DNA of 63,996 bases, the filler included, from Collodictyon triciliatum (lineage: Eukaryota): assembly GCA_043381765.1 (NCBI GenBank). It is 7 parts of 7 records of this genome, joined end to end, with 100 filler letters (N's around TTAATTAATTAA, not from the genome) between each part and the next. Parts side by side here need not be neighbours in the genome. Positions count along the whole stretch, not along the records: positions 9,443 to 18,783 come from JBHJMP010003059.1; 6 more parts are not named here. One strand, given 5' to 3'. Below are positions 11,827 to 52,300 of this stretch, piece by piece. The notes under the pieces are model-generated. The model saw only the letters and a program-made list of their open reading frames with translations. It was not told the origin of the DNA and searched no databases. Positions within the stretch are counted from its first letter, which is position 1. The number at the start of each line of letters is the position of its first letter. Both the position numbers and the translations under genes were made by a program.

Positions 11827-12882
11827 ATTAGTAGTGATGCAATCACGAGTATATGCTTATTGTTCTCTTGCTTATTCAATAAGTGATGTAACTTTTAGTT
11901 CCAATTAGGAATGAAAAAATCATATTAATTTGAAGGGAACCTGTTATAATGATAGTAGCGTTCTAGTTTGGGTGTAAGACAATATTTTTTACAGCACGGT
12001 GCTCTCCATAAAAAAAAAAATTAAAAAAATTGTTAGCCACACAATTTCTTACAGTATATGCGCGCCTTACATCAACCCAACGATTCTTATGAACAAGAAA
12101 CTAATATATTGAAGCTGGGTAGCCTTGAACAAAAAAGGTACTTGAATAACTTACTTAAACACACCCTCATTATTTAGCCACTCTGACTGTAAGCAAAGAG
12201 AGATGTTAGATTATGCCGTAACATATCTCCCATCCCAACATTCAGCATTTGTTAAAATTACAATCAATCTATCAATATATTTTTCTTCGCGACTAACTCG
12301 CTATAGCTGATTCACTTCTCATGCTCCCCCTCCTCCTTACTAGTTTCACTTTCCTACATCTGCTCTCTACTACGCGCACTTAACCTGCCAACAGTTTGGC
12401 TAGAGTCTGCCACTTTGAATCACTTTGAAATGATAACATCGTGCAGGATTTTTTTTATTGTTATTTTTTGCCAGACCAGTCATGCAAGTGCAGAAGCTGC
12501 CTTTCTGTATCGTGGCTCCCGGTGCTTCATGATTCACACAGTCGTATGTTTTTTCCAAGTTATGTATAATCATACGACGAAAGCCCCTGTTCGGTATTCC
12601 ATGTATTCCTACTTGACAATCCAGATGTGTGAGTCGATGTTGCTTCCATTCATATAGCCAATCTGCTCTTCGGCCACGTCTTTATCGACAGTGGGTTGAT
12701 ATGCGGTTTATGGGCATCATCGTAAACATCCTGTCGCTGTGATTCTCTCCTTCAAGTAGGCGCCACGACAGGTTGTCAATTTTCTGCGCGCAGCATCCCT
12801 CGTTGCTTGAATCAAAGGAAAAGATTGAATCTGACACACAGAGCCGAAAACCAACAGGCACCAAGCAACAAAGACAGAAACC

Positions 12883-14094
12883 ATGAGCAAACGCATCTTC
12901 CCGACGCTCGGTGCGCTGTGCGAGTCACTGGGCTCGTATTTGTCCGAGGTAGCCGCTGAGGCTATTGCCAAGCACGGTGAGTTCCGCGTCGCTGTGTCTG
13001 GCGGCTCTCTTCCTTCGCAGCTGAAGCAGGCTCTGATCGAATCCCCCAAAGTGCGAGACAGCATCGACTGGAGCCGCTGGAAAGTACAGTCCACAAACCA
13101 CCTTCACGCACTCGCCCGTCTAAAGCAATCCCCTCTTCTTTTTTTTTTCAATAATTCTATCGCTTTTTTTTTTCTATCTGTGTGACTTCTGTGTAACTCG
13201 GAGTGCAAAGCGCGCGCCTGTCGTTGCTCTTACTAAACCCAAGTCAACCTGCTTCTGCTACATGCACATACAATTCGGTAGGTTTATCTTGTGGACGAGC
13301 GCGTTGTCCCTCTCGACCATGCAGACTCCAACTACAAGGCTTTCGTCGATGCCGTGGCCGAGCCTGCCGGAATCCCACGGTATTTCGCCTGCACCCGCAA
13401 ACGCCATCGCAGCACCCGATTTCATTCCAAAACCTTCGTCTCTGCACACAACCACGCCTGACTCACAAACACAAACACAACACAAACACAACACAAACAG
13501 CACAAACTTGTTCGCCATCAAGCCGGAGCTCGGAGCGGAAGGAGCAGCCAGCGACTATCTGCAGCAGCTTGCACAGACATTCGGACCCGAGGTTTGACCC
13601 ACGACGCTGCCCGTCCATCGGGCCTTTCTTGACCGTGATTGATGAACCACAACACAACCCGCAGCTGCCTGTCTTTGACCTTGTGCTGCTTGGGATGGGG
13701 CCGGACGGCCACACAGCGTCGCTCTTCCCCGGCCACGCGCTTCTACACGAAACAAAGTGGGTTGCGCACATCACAGACTCGCCAAAGCCGCCGCCCGAGC
13801 GAATCACGCTGACCTTCCCGGTTCTGAACGCAGCAGCACACGCGGCGTTTGTGTGCACCGGCAAGTCCAAGCAGGAGGCCGTGAGTCCCGCCACAACTCC
13901 CACCATGACCGATAAGCCTGTCGATACCGCACGATATGTCGCAGACAACGCGGTGAGATTAACACGCATCTCATCCAACGTAGCTGCAAAGCGTCTTCAC
14001 AAAGAAGGAGCTGCCTGCGAGCCTCGTGGCACCAGCCAGCGGGAAGCTCGTCTGGTTCCTGGACGAAGATGCGGCTGCCAACGCGCCCAAGTAG
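12883..14094 (+). CDS. PGLS: 6-phosphogluconolactonase (pentose phosphate pathway), 5 exons
   Basis: Motifs [68 protein letters not shown] and [10 protein letters not shown]. Exons approx. 12883-13083, 13282-13379, 13501-13591, 13665-13880 and 13984-14094. Confidence 0.96.
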
Positions 14095-14170
14095 CCGCCC
14101 CGCCCAACCCATGAAGCAGCCTCTGTCCCGTCCGCTGGGCGTTTGCGTGTTGGGATGTCTGTGTCTATGT

Positions 14171-14456: not shown

Positions 14457-16874
14457 AGTGCTTACCGGTTGGATGTAGATGTTGCTTCGGAGGAGCTCAT
14501 CGGAGGCCTGGCGACAGAGTTTTGCGTCGCCCACAAAGACAGGTAAGATGTGGCTGACCTAGAGATATGCGACTGAGTAAGTAAAGGAAAGGGAAGGAGA
14601 ATGGAAGATGAATGTGGCCTGCTTGTGTTGGTATGGGTAAGGAGTGCGCACCGAGGGCATGACAGGGAGCTTCTTTTCCAGCAGGAGCTTGCGCAGCTTC
14701 ATGACGTTCAGCTTCTGGGTGTCTCGCTCGAAGGTGGACTGCTTCAGATGCTGGATGGATGCGATGGCTCCTGCGCAGAGGGCTGGCGGGATGGACGTGG
14801 TGAAGATGAACCCGGAGCCCATGCTGCGGATGCAGTCCACGAGGGTCGCGTCTGCTGCGATGTAGCCACCTGTAGGAAAGCACACAGCATTGGTCGCATT
14901 GGGTTTAGACACAGCGGCAAGGGGTTTGTCGGGTTCGCGTCTCAGTGAGATGAGATGAGATGAGATGAGATGAGATGAGATGAGATGAGATGAGATGAGA
15001 TGAGATGAGATGAGATGAGATGAGATGAGATGAGATGAGATGAGAAAGGCGTACCCATGATTCCAAAGGCCTTCCCGAGGGTTCCCTGGATGACTGTCAC
15101 GCGGTCCATCAGACCCTCGCGCTCGACAACGCCGGCTCCGTGGGCGCCATACATTCCAACGGCGTGAACTTCGTCCAAGTATGTCATGGCACCATATTTG
15201 TCTGCGAGCTGGATAAAAAAATAATTTTTTTTTAAGAAAAAGAGTAAAGATATAAAAAAGGAGGCGTTACTTATTGTGAGCCATATGATTATGAACGGTC
15301 GGTTTTCCATTAAAATGTTGCAGTGCAATAATATTCATAAGTATTTTTTCTTTGGTCTTCCTCAGTCAGTATTGAATTGAGTGGGCTTTTGCTCTTCTTT
15401 TTTTTTTTTAATATAATAAAATCATGTAAACCAACATCGCAAATTTCCTTGATGGGTGCAATGTGGCCGTCCATGGAGTAAACACTCTCGAAGGCAATCA
15501 GCTTAGGCACAGACGGGTCAGTCTCCTTCAACAGCTGCTCTAGGTGCTGAAGGTCGTTGTGGCGGAAGATTTTTTTGGGTCCGGCATTGCGTCGGATTCC
15601 TTGGATCATGGATGCGTGGTTCTTCTCATCAGAGTATACAACACAGTTAGGAAACAAGTTGGAAAGGGTCGATAGAGTGGTTTCATTGGCGACATAGCCC
15701 GAGGTGAAGACCAGGGCTGCGTCTTTGTTGTGCAGTGAAGCCAACTCTTTCTCGAGCCTCACGTGGAGGTAACTGTTTCCCGAGATGTTTCGAGTTCCTC
15801 CAGCCCCGGCTCCTGACTTGCGGAGGACATCAACCATGGCGTCAACAACCTGGCATTTGATATAATGGAGGTCGGTGAGTAACAAGTATCTCCTGGACGA
15901 TGTTTGGGAATGCCAAGCAAAACGGACGTGGAGAGCAGGATTAAGTTGTTGGACGACTTGCCTTGGGATTCTGGCCCATTCCAAGATAGTCGTTGCTGCA
16001 CCAGATGGTGATGTCTTCGGTATTGTCGTCGACATGGCGCAACGCACGAGGGAATGACTCACGCTACGAGTAAGAAAAAAGAAAAAGAAGCGCGTTTTCT
16101 TCGATTAGAGCTGGACATGGGTCTACATGGTGCCGATAGCTTCACGCTCGCGCTCAGTGGATAATTAAAAGGAAGAAGAAGTAGAAAGAAAAAAAAAGGG
16201 GGGAGAACAAATGGGAGTTGGGTGGAGAAAAGACAGGCATGCGGCTGGCGGCTTACACGACGCTCCACACTGGCGAATGTGCGGTAGCGGCCCTCGTGCT
16301 TGATGCTGTCGATGACCTTGCGGAAGTGGCTTTGGTAGTCCTCCAGGGTGGGGACGCGGTCCTTCACGGCAAAGGGGGAGGGGTGCGACGGCTTCGTGGC
16401 GGCCTTGTCGTGGTGGCGAGGGTGCGTCCGGCCGTGCCTCTCGTGGGCAGCCTTGTCGGCGGATGCGGGCGCCTCGCCGGGGCTGCTGGGCGCTGCGGCC
16501 TCCTGCTTGAGGCTCTCGTCCTTGGCCGCCTGCAGACCCGCAAAGCCCGCCTGCACGATGGACTGGCGCATCCCGGGCGGGACGTCGAGTGCGTGGAGGC
16601 CGGCAGCCTCTCCCGGTATCTTTGCGCGGGCGAACAGGACCCCGGGCGCGTCCACCGGGGCAGAAGCGCACTCCTCCGCTGAGGCTGAGGCTGAGGCTGA
16701 GGCTGTCGGGGTCACTTCGCAGGCGGCGGCCCGCACCTGCAGCATCCGCATGAAGGGGCAGCGGCTCTCCAGGCCGGCCTGCAGTGCTGGCAGCGCCGAG
16801 GCGAGGCCGCCCGCCTTGGGCACGGTCGAGTTGAGGAGGAACGGGCAGCGGCTGAGGGTTCCTGCGAAGGCCAT
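14171..16874 (-). CDS. ALAS: 5-aminolevulinate synthase, mitochondrial precursor (heme synthesis, Shemin pathway), 7 exons
   Basis: Motifs [82 protein letters not shown] (PLP lysine), FIFTTSIPP and [18 protein letters not shown]. The N-terminal extension carries two RCPF motifs. Confidence 0.97.
14946..15044 (+). repeat. (GAGAT)n microsatellite inside an ALAS intron
   Basis: Perfect pentamer array. Confidence 0.95.
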
Positions 16875-17694
16875 GGATGCGGTGCGGTGTGGCTCGGTTG
16901 GTTTGTGGGTTGGTTGTGCGACGGCTTTTTCTGCTTGCAGAAGCCGGGGGCAAAAAAAAAGAAAGAGGGAGGTTTAGTATTTCTGGGCTCAGACGGGTTG
17001 CTTGTGTTGGCTCTTGGTTGTTTGGACTGGATGCGGTCGGGCTAGAATGTTTGCCGTTCTGATCGGTTGCTCGCGCTTTTCCCAGCTCGTTGAGTTGCGG
17101 GTCTCGCGTCTCCTCGTGTGATGATCACCGCTGGATGGTTCGTTATCTCTGATCATTGTGCCTAAGGGAGCCATTTCGATGATGACAAGCATATATATGA
17201 AAAGGCCTTGGGGACGCGGCTATTTTTGTAGTGGAGATAGCGATTTTAGTTGAACTAACTTTTCTGGAAAAAGAATTTACCATTTGCGGATGTGGCTGTT
17301 GTGGTTGTTTGGTGACGGATTGATGCGAAATGTGACGTAATATATGGTCTATTAAGTATGGTATGAAAGTCTGTTGTGGAAACTAGACTGAAGCATTCTT
17401 CTCGTGTCTCCTATTGATGAATGTCGCCACTAATTAACACAAACTGTACTTTTTTTTAAAGCTAACAAGGTATATACAATTAAGTGAACATTACAAATTT
17501 AGTTCTAACGGATGGCACCAACTGACCTGTGACTGCTGTTCGCTCCGATTCTGGAGAAAAGAAAAAGAAAAAGAAAAAGAAAAAGAAAAAGAAAAAGAAA
17601 AAGAAAAAGAAAAAGAAAAAGAAAAAGAAAAAGAAAAAGAAAAAGAAAAAGAAAAAGTAAAAGGCAATAGCAACTTCTTTTTCGCAGCCTATAT

Positions 17695-17718
17695 TTTTTT
17701 CCTTTATCCGATTCAAAG
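17695..17718 (-). mobile_element. Micro-retroposon copy C: CTTTGAATCGGATAAAGG(A)n with a 16-bp TSD
   Basis: Perfect direct repeat TTTTCGCAGCCTATAT at 17679-17694 and 17719-17734. The insert matches the other copies as its reverse complement. It lies about 47 nt downstream of the PQ-loop stop. Confidence 0.85.
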
Positions 17719-17764
17719 TTTTCGCAGCCTATATATTTTCACTATATCAAAAATCTTTAATATC

Positions 17765-49303: not shown

Positions 49304-52300
49304 TCCTTCCTTCCTTCCTTCCTTACTTCAAGCAGAGGCCCTCCTTTTCTGACCTGCTGCCCCTTGTTCAGAAACTCAACGCAGTCCCTACCTACGAAGA
49401 AGTCGGGCCATTCGTCTACCAGTATCTATACGTAAGACTATCTGACGAATCACGTTGAAGCCTGCTGTAACACTTTCGATTACTCCGCTGTTTTCTTTAT
49501 ATCATACGATTCTGAAACTCTGCGTGGCATCATGCAGGAGAAAATCGACGTGTCAATTAACAAGTCCACCCACTCCGCTAAATTCCGCAATTACAATCGC
49601 TACATCTTCAGGGAAGACAAGTCTGTGTCCAGCGACAAAGTGGATATTTTTCAGGTGGGTCCACAAAAGCGGCCATTTCCATTAGGCGTTAATCCTAACT
49701 ATGCTCATTTGATTTTTTTTTTTATATCTCCTATACCCTAGTGACAGTTTATCAACGAATGGTTCATTTACACGCCCCTCTAGGTGAATCCTGCATATAT
49801 CCTCGCAGCTTACACGAACCTAAGACCGGACCAACCATCAAAGCCGGTGCCTGCTGCGGAACCGGGAGTCCTTGCCAGTATAGTGAGCGGTGCGTTCAGT
49901 CAAGTTTATGGCTCCATAGGACCTTCATCGTCCTTCCCAGGCCTTGTGAGTACCTGTCTTTATGTACCTCCCATTCCTAAGGAACATACCGTGAAAAAAA
50001 ACACAAACAAGAAATGCATTATACAAGGGTTCTGTTGAGTTAGTTACAACTCACTTTTACCATACATTCACACCCTTGACTACAACCTTGATTCCACTGT
50101 AGATCAAAACAAACTACTTTCAACCTACATTCACCAATTACCGTAAGCTCATCATTGGGTATAAATACGGGGGAAATACTCCTAACTTTGTTGCTGCTCT
50201 CACTGGCACGATTAACGTGAGTCTTACTTCACACCGCCCTTGTATCCAAATTAATTTCGCAAGAGGCCTGTGTTGACGAGGTTTATTTCCCCAGTGGTCT
50301 GCCGACAACTGTAGTGCTGTCCCGGCTGCGGCGCAGGCATCATGCAATATGTTCAATGCGGTTTACTCAGTATGTGCTTTTGATATAGTAGCGTTGACTA
50401 GAACGTTGGCTGGGAGTCATAATTATATTGTCTTAGCTTGTATGTAACCTTGTATTGGAAATAGTATCCGATTACTTTCACCGATGTGCGTAGCGCAGTT
50501 GTGGCCAAACTCATGGATGACACAAATGTAAGCCCCTATTATAAGTTGCTCGTTATCCTGCTTGCACAAAGAAATCCCGGAGCAGCTGATGAATGCATAT
50601 ATTCTCGTACAGGTCGGGGGTCTGCTGCATTCCAATAATTTGTGGATAAAAGCCTTGCTTAACAAGGTGAACGACTCTCCCAATCCCATATACTACAAAC
50701 CAGCCGCTCTTGCGGTGGAAGCCACCAGTACCGAAGTCATGAAGTGAGTTTGAAGTTATGTAGTATGCCCAATCAATCTCAAGGTCTCGATAATATCCCA
50801 TCGGCTGGAGTGACGGCTCTCTGTATCTAACAATTTGTATACCTCTCCCAGAATTTTTGCATGGATTGAATCGTATATCAATAAGCAAGAATTGGCAGTA
50901 CGTTATATTCTCTACTTAGCCTTTACATTACGATGAGTTCTATACGTTTTCTTTCCCTATTTAAAGTAATACACTAATGAACAAAGTGCACTTCCTTCAT
51001 CATTAGATTCTGAGGTACTGGCTGGGGTGGGGTAGCGGATTTACATATGAGAAAGCAGGATATCTTCAATTTGCTAGTTTAAAGCCACTCAATGGGCTAA
51101 GCCTGCGCCACCAGAACCCTTCCACTGCGTTCTATCCTGATTTCCAAGGGTAACTGAGCCTTCATCATGTTAACATTTTGGGCGGTTAGTTCAATGCCCC
51201 TCAATTGAGAGAATATTCCTCTACCAGATATTACAAGTATGAGATTGGGGCTAATGTTCCGATGAGCCAAGACACTGCAGAGGCTCTCTTCTCCCCGATG
51301 ACTGTCAATGGGGTTTTATACAAGGAAGGAATTAGAAACCCATTCATTGTACATTTTATTCATATAAACATATAATACTTCTATGAATCGAATTGAGGGA
51401 AAAAAAAAGTATACCCATGTACTTCACCGGAAATTCGAATATGTATTTTATGTTCGTGGCTTTGGTAATTCTCACGGAAATTTTGCATGCTTCACCTTGA
51501 TTTGTTGATTGATTGTATTCCGGTACTTCATTACAGATTGGTACCATTCTTAATCAAAATCCAACCGTAATGGCGCAAGTTGGATTTGCAAACATCCAAC
51601 AGGTACCCAATCATTCATTCAAACATGACATGATAATTGTTGAGTTTGGACACTAGGGCTTTATCTAACCACAGTATATCTTACACTCGAGGCTGCGGCA
51701 TTCGTTCCTTTTGCGGTAAGCATTTATCTGGCTACGATTACCCCGCTCTGCAATCAGATGAATGCGTACGGAACATGCTTCTATCGCCGCACGAGTGTAC
51801 AGAATCTTCTCTTTGGGACAACAGAAGATCCGATGGTCGTGTTCTTTTCCAAGGGGCTACGCAAGTCTGCCGGTATCTTCACGAATCACACTGACGTATG
51901 TACAATTAAGTCCAGTCTACACTCCAAATAGTGATGTGAGCCGCTTTATATAAAATGACTCATGAATTCACACTCTCTAGTACACCGCTGCCAGAAGCAA
52001 TAATATGTTCGGAGACGAGGTGGACATAGGCACCAGTGATGTCGATGACATTGGAAAGATATACAGAATCAATGGGTAAGCAAATCTGCTACGAAAATTC
52101 TATTGGGTGTCATACTTTGTATCTTTATACAGGCTTGTTCACGTGTATCACAATTAGAGCAAAGAACATTGTCCGTAATGACGGAATTACAAATTCCTGG
52201 AACGGAACGGTCGCTATCACCGGTCGTGGTGTTCAATTCCCTCCCTTCTCCAAGGATAGTTACACACAGGCAATCTACTCGACATCCCTCTATCGTAATC

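What the first reader, a model, noticed from the sequence alone, without database searches (positions are those of the whole stretch)
17695..17718. The micro-element has a near-fixed 5' end and a conserved mini-hairpin
Seen: four of five copies begin within 2 nt of one another (CACTTTG/ACTTTG/CTTTG) and share nothing further upstream. The core can fold as a CUUUG/UAAAG stem with a 7-nt loop. All four substitutions among copies A, C, D and E fall in the loop (AATCGAA, AATCGGA, ACTCGAA, AATCAAG). Established: random 5' truncation of LINEs gives a broad length distribution, and several LINE/SINE pairs use a 3' stem-loop for RT recognition. Inference: the template may be a discrete ~20-nt polyadenylated RNA (small RNA or a defined cleavage product of a LINE transcript), or RT may be aborted at a fixed point. 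The sample is very small, the stem is weak, and one change is CpG-type.
Basis: inference. Interest (0 to 1): 0.7.

Follow-up and report, generated by a model that had tools for sequence, protein, structure and literature searches.

The report
LINE tail tips with sharp cutoff
The tiny insert is the last 17 bases of a jumping gene, and about two thirds of roughly two thousand copies stop at nearly that same base, which is unusual and could help explain why such genes get cut short, but the proposed mini-hairpin is not what is conserved.

Summary
The insert is real but is not a separate element. It is the 3' tip of an L1/Tx1-type LINE (endonuclease, RT, zinc knuckle), inserted with a G+A tail and a target duplication of about 17 bp. 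The scan noted this before on other pieces of this genome.

The near-fixed 5' end holds genome-wide: 1978 exact 17-mers, 608 21-mers, 471 26-mers. In a 3'-anchored sample, 53 of 126 copies stop at 16-18 nt (p=6e-13 against flanking positions). It is a spike on a continuum: a smaller spike lies at 10-11 nt and longer copies run into the RT gene.

The conserved hairpin is not supported. It is -0.3 kcal/mol, no better than shuffles, and displaced in native context. Stem and loop mutate equally. A ~285-nt SINE shares the last 15 nt, keeps the loop and breaks the stem; a slipped-register hairpin stays possible. The SINE shows a weaker cutoff, and a sister LINE shows none.

Best reading (0.45): reverse transcription aborts at the edge of the ORF2p-recognised tail motif. 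Rival (0.28): a protein-protected short RNA is the template. RNA data could not decide between them.

The parts
17702..17718 (-). Copy A: last 17 nt of the L1/Tx1-type LINE (one A>G change)
   Evidence: same tip as long LINE copies
17694..17701 (-). Tail of copy A: one G and seven A
17719..17733 (-). Upstream copy of the target-site duplication (15 bp exact); its last A also matches LINE position 18
17679..17693 (-). Downstream copy of the target-site duplication
22001..22012 (+). Copy B: last 12 nt of the tip, two extra 5' bases, G+A tail, flanked by a ~15-bp duplication; belongs near the 10-11 nt class
28039..28055 (-). Copy C: 17-18 nt tip in an A-rich repeat; duplication not clear
30389..30405 (+). 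Copy D: 17-19 nt tip, two loop changes (one at the CpG); duplication degenerate
34353..34371 (+). Copy E: 19-nt tip with an exact 17-bp duplication
37784..37953 (+). Older, longer copy of the same LINE 3' end (~170 nt up to an assembly gap, 75% identical), with three changes in the proposed stem
   Evidence: blastn
51381..51397 (+). Tentative diverged tip with three stem changes and a GG+A tail; no clear duplication

Best explanation
Shown: these inserts are target-primed reverse-transcription products of an L1/Tx1-type LINE, reduced to the last ~17 nt plus a short G+A tail, with duplications of about 15-20 bp. All retro-inserts examined in this genome are very short, and this family has in addition a sharp stop at 17-18 nt and a smaller one at 10-11 nt. 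Inferred: the LINE protein (ORF2p) grips the last 15-18 nt of the RNA by sequence, the segment that the SINE also carries. It primes in the first few A's and copies through that segment. Most complexes then fail as they leave it (abortive initiation), and host end-joining or a template jump seals the short cDNA. The stop marks the 5' edge of the recognition motif rather than a conserved CUUUG/UAAAG stem.
For: Parent LINE: Pfam endonuclease E=2.9e-12, RT E=3e-26, zf-RVT E=1.6e-7 on overlapping copies; one locus carries RT and tip together; best solved relatives are human L1 ORF2p (E~1e-32) ahead of R2 (1e-19). Filled versus empty sites inside other LINE copies: 9 of 9 and 4 of 4 comparison copies lack the insert and have one copy of the duplicated stretch. 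Cliff: per-base retention 0.745 from 17 to 21 nt, then 0.950 from 21 to 26; mutation explains little, as 13 of 16 long copies keep those four bases. The stop coincides with the LINE/SINE homology boundary (15 nt shared, position 17 also equal). The SINE, with different upstream sequence, also has excess stops there (14 in 142 position-exposures at 17-19 nt, 6 in 212 at 20-25). The sister LINE with another tail has no cliff (724 to 527 over 6 nt, 0.948 per base). Length does not track tail length (rho 0.03, n=73), so no total-length ruler is seen. Host end-joining shortening LINE inserts is reported (PMC2666801, passages).
Against: No experiment shows ORF2p binding or stalling. The SINE cliff is clearly weaker (128 to 63 over the same 4 nt, odds ratio 2.2 against the LINE). 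It is only suggestive when limited to SINE-diagnostic lengths 18-19 (p=0.063), and some 17-nt 'SINE' copies may be mutated LINE tips. The 10-11 nt spike is not explained. Junctions do not separate abortive synthesis from run-off: microhomology is at chance level in both the peak class (32 of 64; null 52%) and the long class. A slipped hairpin with its foot at position 17 fits both LINE and SINE. A-tails change after insertion, which weakens the ruler test.
Confidence: 0.45

Rival explanations
1. The template itself is short: 5'-to-3' decay or a defined cut trims LINE RNA to the part protected by bound ORF2p (17-18 nt, less often 10-11 nt, plus tail), and RT runs off its end.
For: Very sharp end, mostly at position 17 (25 of 89 duplication-delimited inserts). 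No excess microhomology, and extra untemplated-looking bases in 19 of 83 peak junctions, as expected from run-off. Two discrete sizes would fit two protection boundaries.
Against: Long truncated copies show the same junction types, and about 40% extra bases and 50% microhomology are reported for ordinary truncated ZfL2-2 inserts (PMC2666801). No RNA of this size was seen; the available RNA runs are contigs and cannot show ends. The bases before either start are not AG, so splicing is not the source (columns).
Confidence: 0.28
2. A small terminal hairpin defines the end, either the reader's register or a register slipped by one base that uses the first tail G (pairs 17:+1, 16:1, 15:2, 14:3), stabilised by protein.
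For: The hairpin foot is at position 17, the main stop. In the slipped register the single LINE/SINE difference is pair-compatible (U-G in 27 of 30 LINE copies, C-G in 22 of 28 SINE copies), and the SINE form is -2.8 to -6.1 kcal/mol. In stringent LINEs the loop is the specific part (PMC4176376, abstract), so an invariant loop does not exclude a hairpin.
Against: In 50-150 nt of native context its pairing probability is 0.02 or less. The element with the stronger hairpin (SINE) has the weaker cliff. RT melts the 3' arm first, so a template hairpin cannot stop it at its far end (inference). The sister LINE lacks the stem and still retroposes in hundreds of copies.
Confidence: 0.13
3. An upstream RNA structure of the LINE (a weak hairpin at positions 39/35 to 20/18) stalls RT just before it.
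For: An inner hairpin ending at position 20 appears in the predicted folds; the common A/G variant at position 20 (14 versus 13 copies) pairs with U either way.
Against: Only -1.9 to -2.6 kcal/mol; the region folds no better than shuffles (z -0.11 and 0.51); the SINE lacks it yet shows some excess stops.
Confidence: 0.07
4. Ordinary random truncation whose apparent peak comes from assembly collapse of long copies, selection against longer inserts, or small samples; or an independent micro-SINE with its own master gene.
For: The assembly is fragmented (14,576 contigs) and many long copies sit at contig ends, so long copies are undercounted.
Against: Neither effect can distinguish 17 from 21 nt; the sister LINE in the same assembly shows no cliff (p=5e-86). 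The micro-copies equal the LINE tip base for base and grade into longer copies.
Confidence: 0.07

Closest known systems
5'-truncated insertions of L1/Tx1-superfamily LINEs (human L1 as reference)
   Same: APE endonuclease, RT and zinc knuckle; A-tail; variable duplication of about 15-20 bp; insertion at T-rich/A-rich junctions; 5' truncation with blunt, microhomology or extra-base junctions.
   Different: Median insert under 20 nt, a near single-base stop taking about two thirds of copies that reach 17 nt, tails of only 5-10 nt with 0-5 G before the A's. The broad, much longer length range of human L1 truncations is recalled, not looked up.
Stringent-type LINE/SINE pairs sharing a 3' tail (eel UnaL2, zebrafish ZfL2; monocot LINE1-1_ZM with ZmSINE2/3; Chlamydomonas L1-1_CR)
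   Same: A SINE and a LINE share their extreme 3' end. [quoted passage not shown]
   Different: The shared part is 15 nt rather than about 50, and no compensatory stem changes were found in the proposed register, whereas that paper reports them for the monocot L1.
Maque of Anopheles gambiae (Tu 2001, PMID 11223264)
   Same: By title, 'extremely short interspersed repetitive elements' (seen only as a reference-list entry). Recalled: ~60-bp retroposed pieces with a common 5' end ascribed to incomplete reverse transcription.
   Different: Paper not held, so the comparison is from memory. Here the piece is about three times shorter, the parent LINE is identified, and longer copies grade into it.

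Membership tests
L1/Tx1-superfamily LINE (parent element) | N-terminal APE-type endonuclease in ORF2 | tested here: met
   PF03372 E=2.9e-12 on L148, linked to the tip through overlapping copies 88-93% identical; no PDB sequence match for this part
L1/Tx1-superfamily LINE (parent element) | RT most similar to L1/Tx1 RTs | tested here: met
   Human L1 ORF2p E~1e-32 versus R2 1e-19; named hits include LINE-1-like and Tx1-like proteins at 27-35% identity
L1/Tx1-superfamily LINE (parent element) | C-terminal zinc knuckle | tested here: met
   PF13966 E=1.6e-7 on L149
L1/Tx1-superfamily LINE (parent element) | A-tail and variable-length target duplication | tested here: met
   89 of 137 anchored sites have a duplication, mode 17-18 bp; mismatched-pair control 0.7% or less; empty sites
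L1/Tx1-superfamily LINE (parent element) | ORF1, an intact full-length copy, and placement in L1 versus Tx1 by phylogeny | not tested
   All copies examined are broken or cut by contig ends; no tree was built
Stringent LINE/SINE pair with 3' stem-loop | SINE shares the LINE's 3' terminal sequence | tested here: met
   Last 15 nt identical, upstream unrelated
   Pair 16:2 canonical in 3 of 28 SINE copies; no two-sided change among the commonest pair types; sister LINE lacks the stem
Stringent LINE/SINE pair with 3' stem-loop | Stem in a slipped register | tested here: inconclusive
   One pair-compatible one-sided change (U-G to C-G); LINE form about 0 kcal/mol
Stringent LINE/SINE pair with 3' stem-loop | Tail is required and bound by ORF2p | not testable with these tools
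   Needs binding or retrotransposition assays
Independent micro-SINE / small-RNA retroposon | Own sequence and promoter distinct from a LINE | tested here: not met
   The whole insert equals the LINE tip and grades into longer copies; no Rfam or tRNA match in the window
Independent micro-SINE / small-RNA retroposon | A discrete RNA of that size exists | not testable with these tools
   Only contig-level RNA runs were served
tRNA-derived SINE (the ~285-nt partner) | tRNA-like head with A and B boxes | tested here: inconclusive
   Common 5' start and box-like motifs by eye (box consensus recalled); ARAGORN found 0 in 8 loci and Rfam 0 in 6 loci

The most novel reading that the evidence does not exclude
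The genome holds a base-resolution fossil footprint of an L1-type ORF2p on a 15-18 nt sequence-specific tail motif. The host trims LINE RNA down to this protected piece, so that most retrotransposition events yield harmless ~25-bp inserts copied from a discrete short RNA: a defence by template trimming, and a very short stringent recognition signal for an L1-clade element.
Probability: 0.25. Interest if true: 0.72.

Novelty: new variant of a known kind. Interest (0 to 1): 0.48.

Why it matters
Why LINE insertions are 5'-truncated is still unsettled (PMC2666801 calls the mechanism unclear). Here one family stops at nearly one base in well over a thousand copies, a SINE sharing only the last 15 nt shows a weaker stop, and a sister LINE in the same genome shows none. 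That three-way contrast gives a small, defined test of whether RNA recognition by ORF2p, RNA decay or DNA repair sets the end. It also points to a minimal 15-nt tail that may be enough for mobilisation by an L1-type protein. The hairpin idea itself adds little.

Tried and rejected
Rfam and tRNA scans of the window and of the SINE loci: nothing.

RNA evidence: 20 runs listed, none with half of the words; the 4 laid were contigs only. They cover parts of the LINE 3' region but cannot show ends, strand or level, so they are not used as evidence.

Total-length ruler: no link of length to tail length (rho 0.03) or to G-run; a weak negative trend with duplication length (rho -0.21, p=0.07).

Microhomology-driven joining as the cause of the peak: not enriched in frequency; mean 1.02 versus 0.80, p=0.06, owing to a few junctions of 4-8 nt.

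cDNA hairpin: not predicted with DNA parameters.

Splice-acceptor origin and small-RNA slicing register: considered by inspection, no fit.

A long-range stem pairing the tail with a pyrimidine run 37-45 nt upstream is the predicted fold but is no better than shuffles, so it is not claimed.

The antisense reading frames upstream of some SINE copies gave no meaningful Pfam match. One search failed on a filter bug and was redone.

Literature searches (listings and abstract starts only) listed no paper on a LINE with a sub-20-nt fixed truncation. The library lacks most subscription journals, so this is weak.

Full report
Observation. The minus strand at 17718-17695 holds a 17-nt core, a G and a run of A, between exact 15-bp direct repeats at 17679-17693 and 17719-17733. 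Three more window copies start within 2 nt of the same base, and a fifth starts inside the loop. The exact core occurs 1978 times in the 75.4-Mb genome and the reversed control 0 times. Two micro-copies sit inside other LINE copies, so their empty sites can be read: 9 of 9 and 4 of 4 comparison copies lack the insert and carry the duplicated stretch once. The inserts are therefore real.

What it is. Copies with more 5' sequence form a ladder of 25-42, 95, 142, 236 and about 600 nt and on to 2 kb. The long ones reach coding sequence: endonuclease PF03372, RT PF00078 and zinc knuckle PF13966, on overlapping copies, with one locus holding RT and tip together. The RT is closest to human L1 ORF2p among solved structures and to L1-like and Tx1-like proteins among named hits. 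The micro-element is the 3' tip of this LINE. The window itself has a ~170-nt older copy at 37784-37953. Eight earlier scan notes on this genome reach the same identification; I had reached it before opening them and tested it here.

The 5' end. Positions are counted back from the last G of the core. Genome-wide exact counts are 1978 for 17 nt (one position allowed A or G), 608 for 21 nt and 471 for 26 nt. That is a retention of 0.745 per base and then 0.950. Mutation accounts for little of the first drop: 13 of 16 long copies with an exact core keep the four upstream bases. To avoid selecting on the 5' side I took sites anchored only on the last 7 nt and the tail: all 100 listed of 421 hits and 37 of 134 hits, 137 sites. 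Eleven matching only 7-8 nt were dropped as mostly chance (reversed controls 14 and 1 hits). Of the remaining 126, 18 stop at 10-11 nt, 14 at 12-15, 53 at 16-18, 11 at 19-22, 19 at 23-37 and 8 beyond; 3 stop at 9. Per-base stop rates are 0.076, 0.035, 0.253, 0.082 and 0.078. The main peak against its flanks has p=6e-13 and the small one p=0.025. This sample comes from low-numbered contigs, pools LINE and SINE tips, and holds at least one duplicated locus; long copies are undercounted in this fragmented assembly. So the distribution is a continuum with a sharp spike, neither smooth nor a single fixed end.

The hairpin. The proposed stem is -0.3 kcal/mol and 110 of 200 shuffles fold as well. Within 50-150 nt of native sequence its pairing probability is 0.02 or less. 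Stem versus loop changes: 15 of 300 versus 13 of 210 cells in 30 long LINE copies (p=0.56; 9 of the 13 at the CpG), 27 of 280 versus 16 of 196 in 28 SINE copies (p=0.63; 2 of 30 loci dropped). In 37 inserts found from their duplications alone the figures are 11 of 370 versus 4 of 259 (p=0.30; many of the 37 were exact copies that earlier searches had targeted).

Comparison between families is the better test. A second element of about 285 nt, with a common 5' start and a tRNA-like head by eye only, shares just the last 15 nt. It keeps the loop and has C at position 16, leaving that pair canonical in 3 of 28 copies. A sister LINE (RT 70-75% identical in DNA; tail linked through L145 and L380) has a related tail that cannot form the stem. 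In favour of a hairpin: shifted by one base and using the first tail G, four pairs form in both LINE and SINE, the single difference being U-G versus C-G. That form is about 0 kcal/mol for the LINE and -2.8 to -6.1 for the SINE. In stringent LINEs the loop is the specific part (PMC4176376, abstract and outline only). A protein-stabilised hairpin is thus not excluded, but a conserved stem with a variable loop is not what the data show.

What sets the stop. The sister LINE also leaves very short inserts (35 found as bystanders, most under 60 nt) but has no cliff: 724 to 527 exact copies from 16 to 22 nt (p=5e-86 against the first LINE). The cliff is therefore not a host-wide ruler. The SINE drops from 128 to 63 between 17 and 21 nt. 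Among the first 55 such sites, 2 were set aside as LINE mutants; 14 of 53 stop at 17-19 nt and 6 at 20-25. Limited to the SINE-diagnostic lengths 18-19 this is p=0.063. The SINE cliff is weaker than the LINE's. Junction microhomology is at chance level at the peak (32 of 64 with one base or more, null 52%), 19 of 83 peak junctions carry extra bases (at least one a mis-called duplication), and long copies look the same. Similar shares are reported for ZfL2-2 (PMC2666801, passages), so junctions do not discriminate. Length is unrelated to tail length. Target sites have T or C before the duplication in 101 of 116 and A at its start, the latter partly built into the detection.

Mechanism. Shown: TPRT origin, LINE parent, cliff, shared 15-nt tail, contrast among three families. 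Inferred: ORF2p binds the terminal motif by sequence, copies through it and usually fails on leaving it, and the short cDNA is joined (0.45). The main rival is that RNA decay or a cut leaves a protected short template (0.28). A hairpin-defined end (0.13), an upstream structure (0.07) and artefact or an independent element (0.07) follow. The RNA runs served were contigs and cannot decide.

Comparison with what is known. It is a member of the L1/Tx1 superfamily by domains and insertion signature; L1 versus Tx1 was not resolved. It works like a stringent LINE/SINE pair but fails the compensated-stem test. Ohshima 2012 (PMC3472496, part 1 of 3 read) reports such pairs as rare among L1s, with about 50 nt shared. 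Maque is the nearest short-element analogue, seen as a title only, with details recalled. The bioRxiv preprint opened (passages) gave nothing on very short inserts; its supplements were not seen and are not relied on. Eight searches listed no report of a sub-20-nt fixed truncation, in a library lacking most subscription journals.

Verdict. A real and unusual truncation pattern of a known kind of element, already noted by this scan; the hairpin part is unsupported. New variant of a known kind, interest 0.48.

Noticed in passing
G000, e.g. L311, L320, L321, L327, L333 (last ~285 nt before the tail): A SINE-like element with a common 5' start and box-like motifs shares only its last 15 nt with the LINE; most of its copies are also cut to 17-70 nt.
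   Followed up: partly
L311, L315, L316, L322, L323, L326: In six loci the SINE is the 3' end of a repeat longer than 1.7 kb (84-87% identical; 3' flanks differ in the four printed) whose upstream part has a broken antisense frame. It looks TnpB/Fanzor-like by eye (recalled; Pfam gave nothing). Possibly a 5' transduction or composite retroposon.
   Followed up: partly
G000, e.g. L380, L152, L151:3981, L317: A sister LINE family with a related but different tail (724 exact tips) also makes 15-60 nt inserts with duplications, without a cliff at 16-22 nt.
   Followed up: partly
tails of all first-LINE and SINE copies, e.g. L084, L305, L008: Zero to six G's, sometimes mixed G/A, lie between the fixed end and the A-run and vary per copy. 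Source unexplained (mixed tailing, slippage or A>G change).
   Followed up: no
L182, L197, L358: A few junctions show 4-8 nt of target homology to the tip, with the upstream duplication copy apparently converted to element sequence, suggesting cDNA annealing to the target overhang.
   Followed up: no
window 12091-12232 (+) and 12488-12623 (-): Two old LINE fragments about 71% identical to the reference copy.
   Followed up: no
window 15310-16973 (-) and 13197-14114 (+): Intron-containing, GC-rich genes: a 5-aminolevulinate-synthase-like protein (PF00155; the name is by eye) and a 6-phosphogluconolactonase-like protein (PF01182). Copy A lies about 700 bp upstream of the former, beside an (AAAAGA)n array.
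   Followed up: partly
L148 5646-9899 (-) (G000:C929): An open frame of 1418 aa with an RT match, LTR-retrotransposon-like by eye, next to a LINE copy.
   Followed up: no
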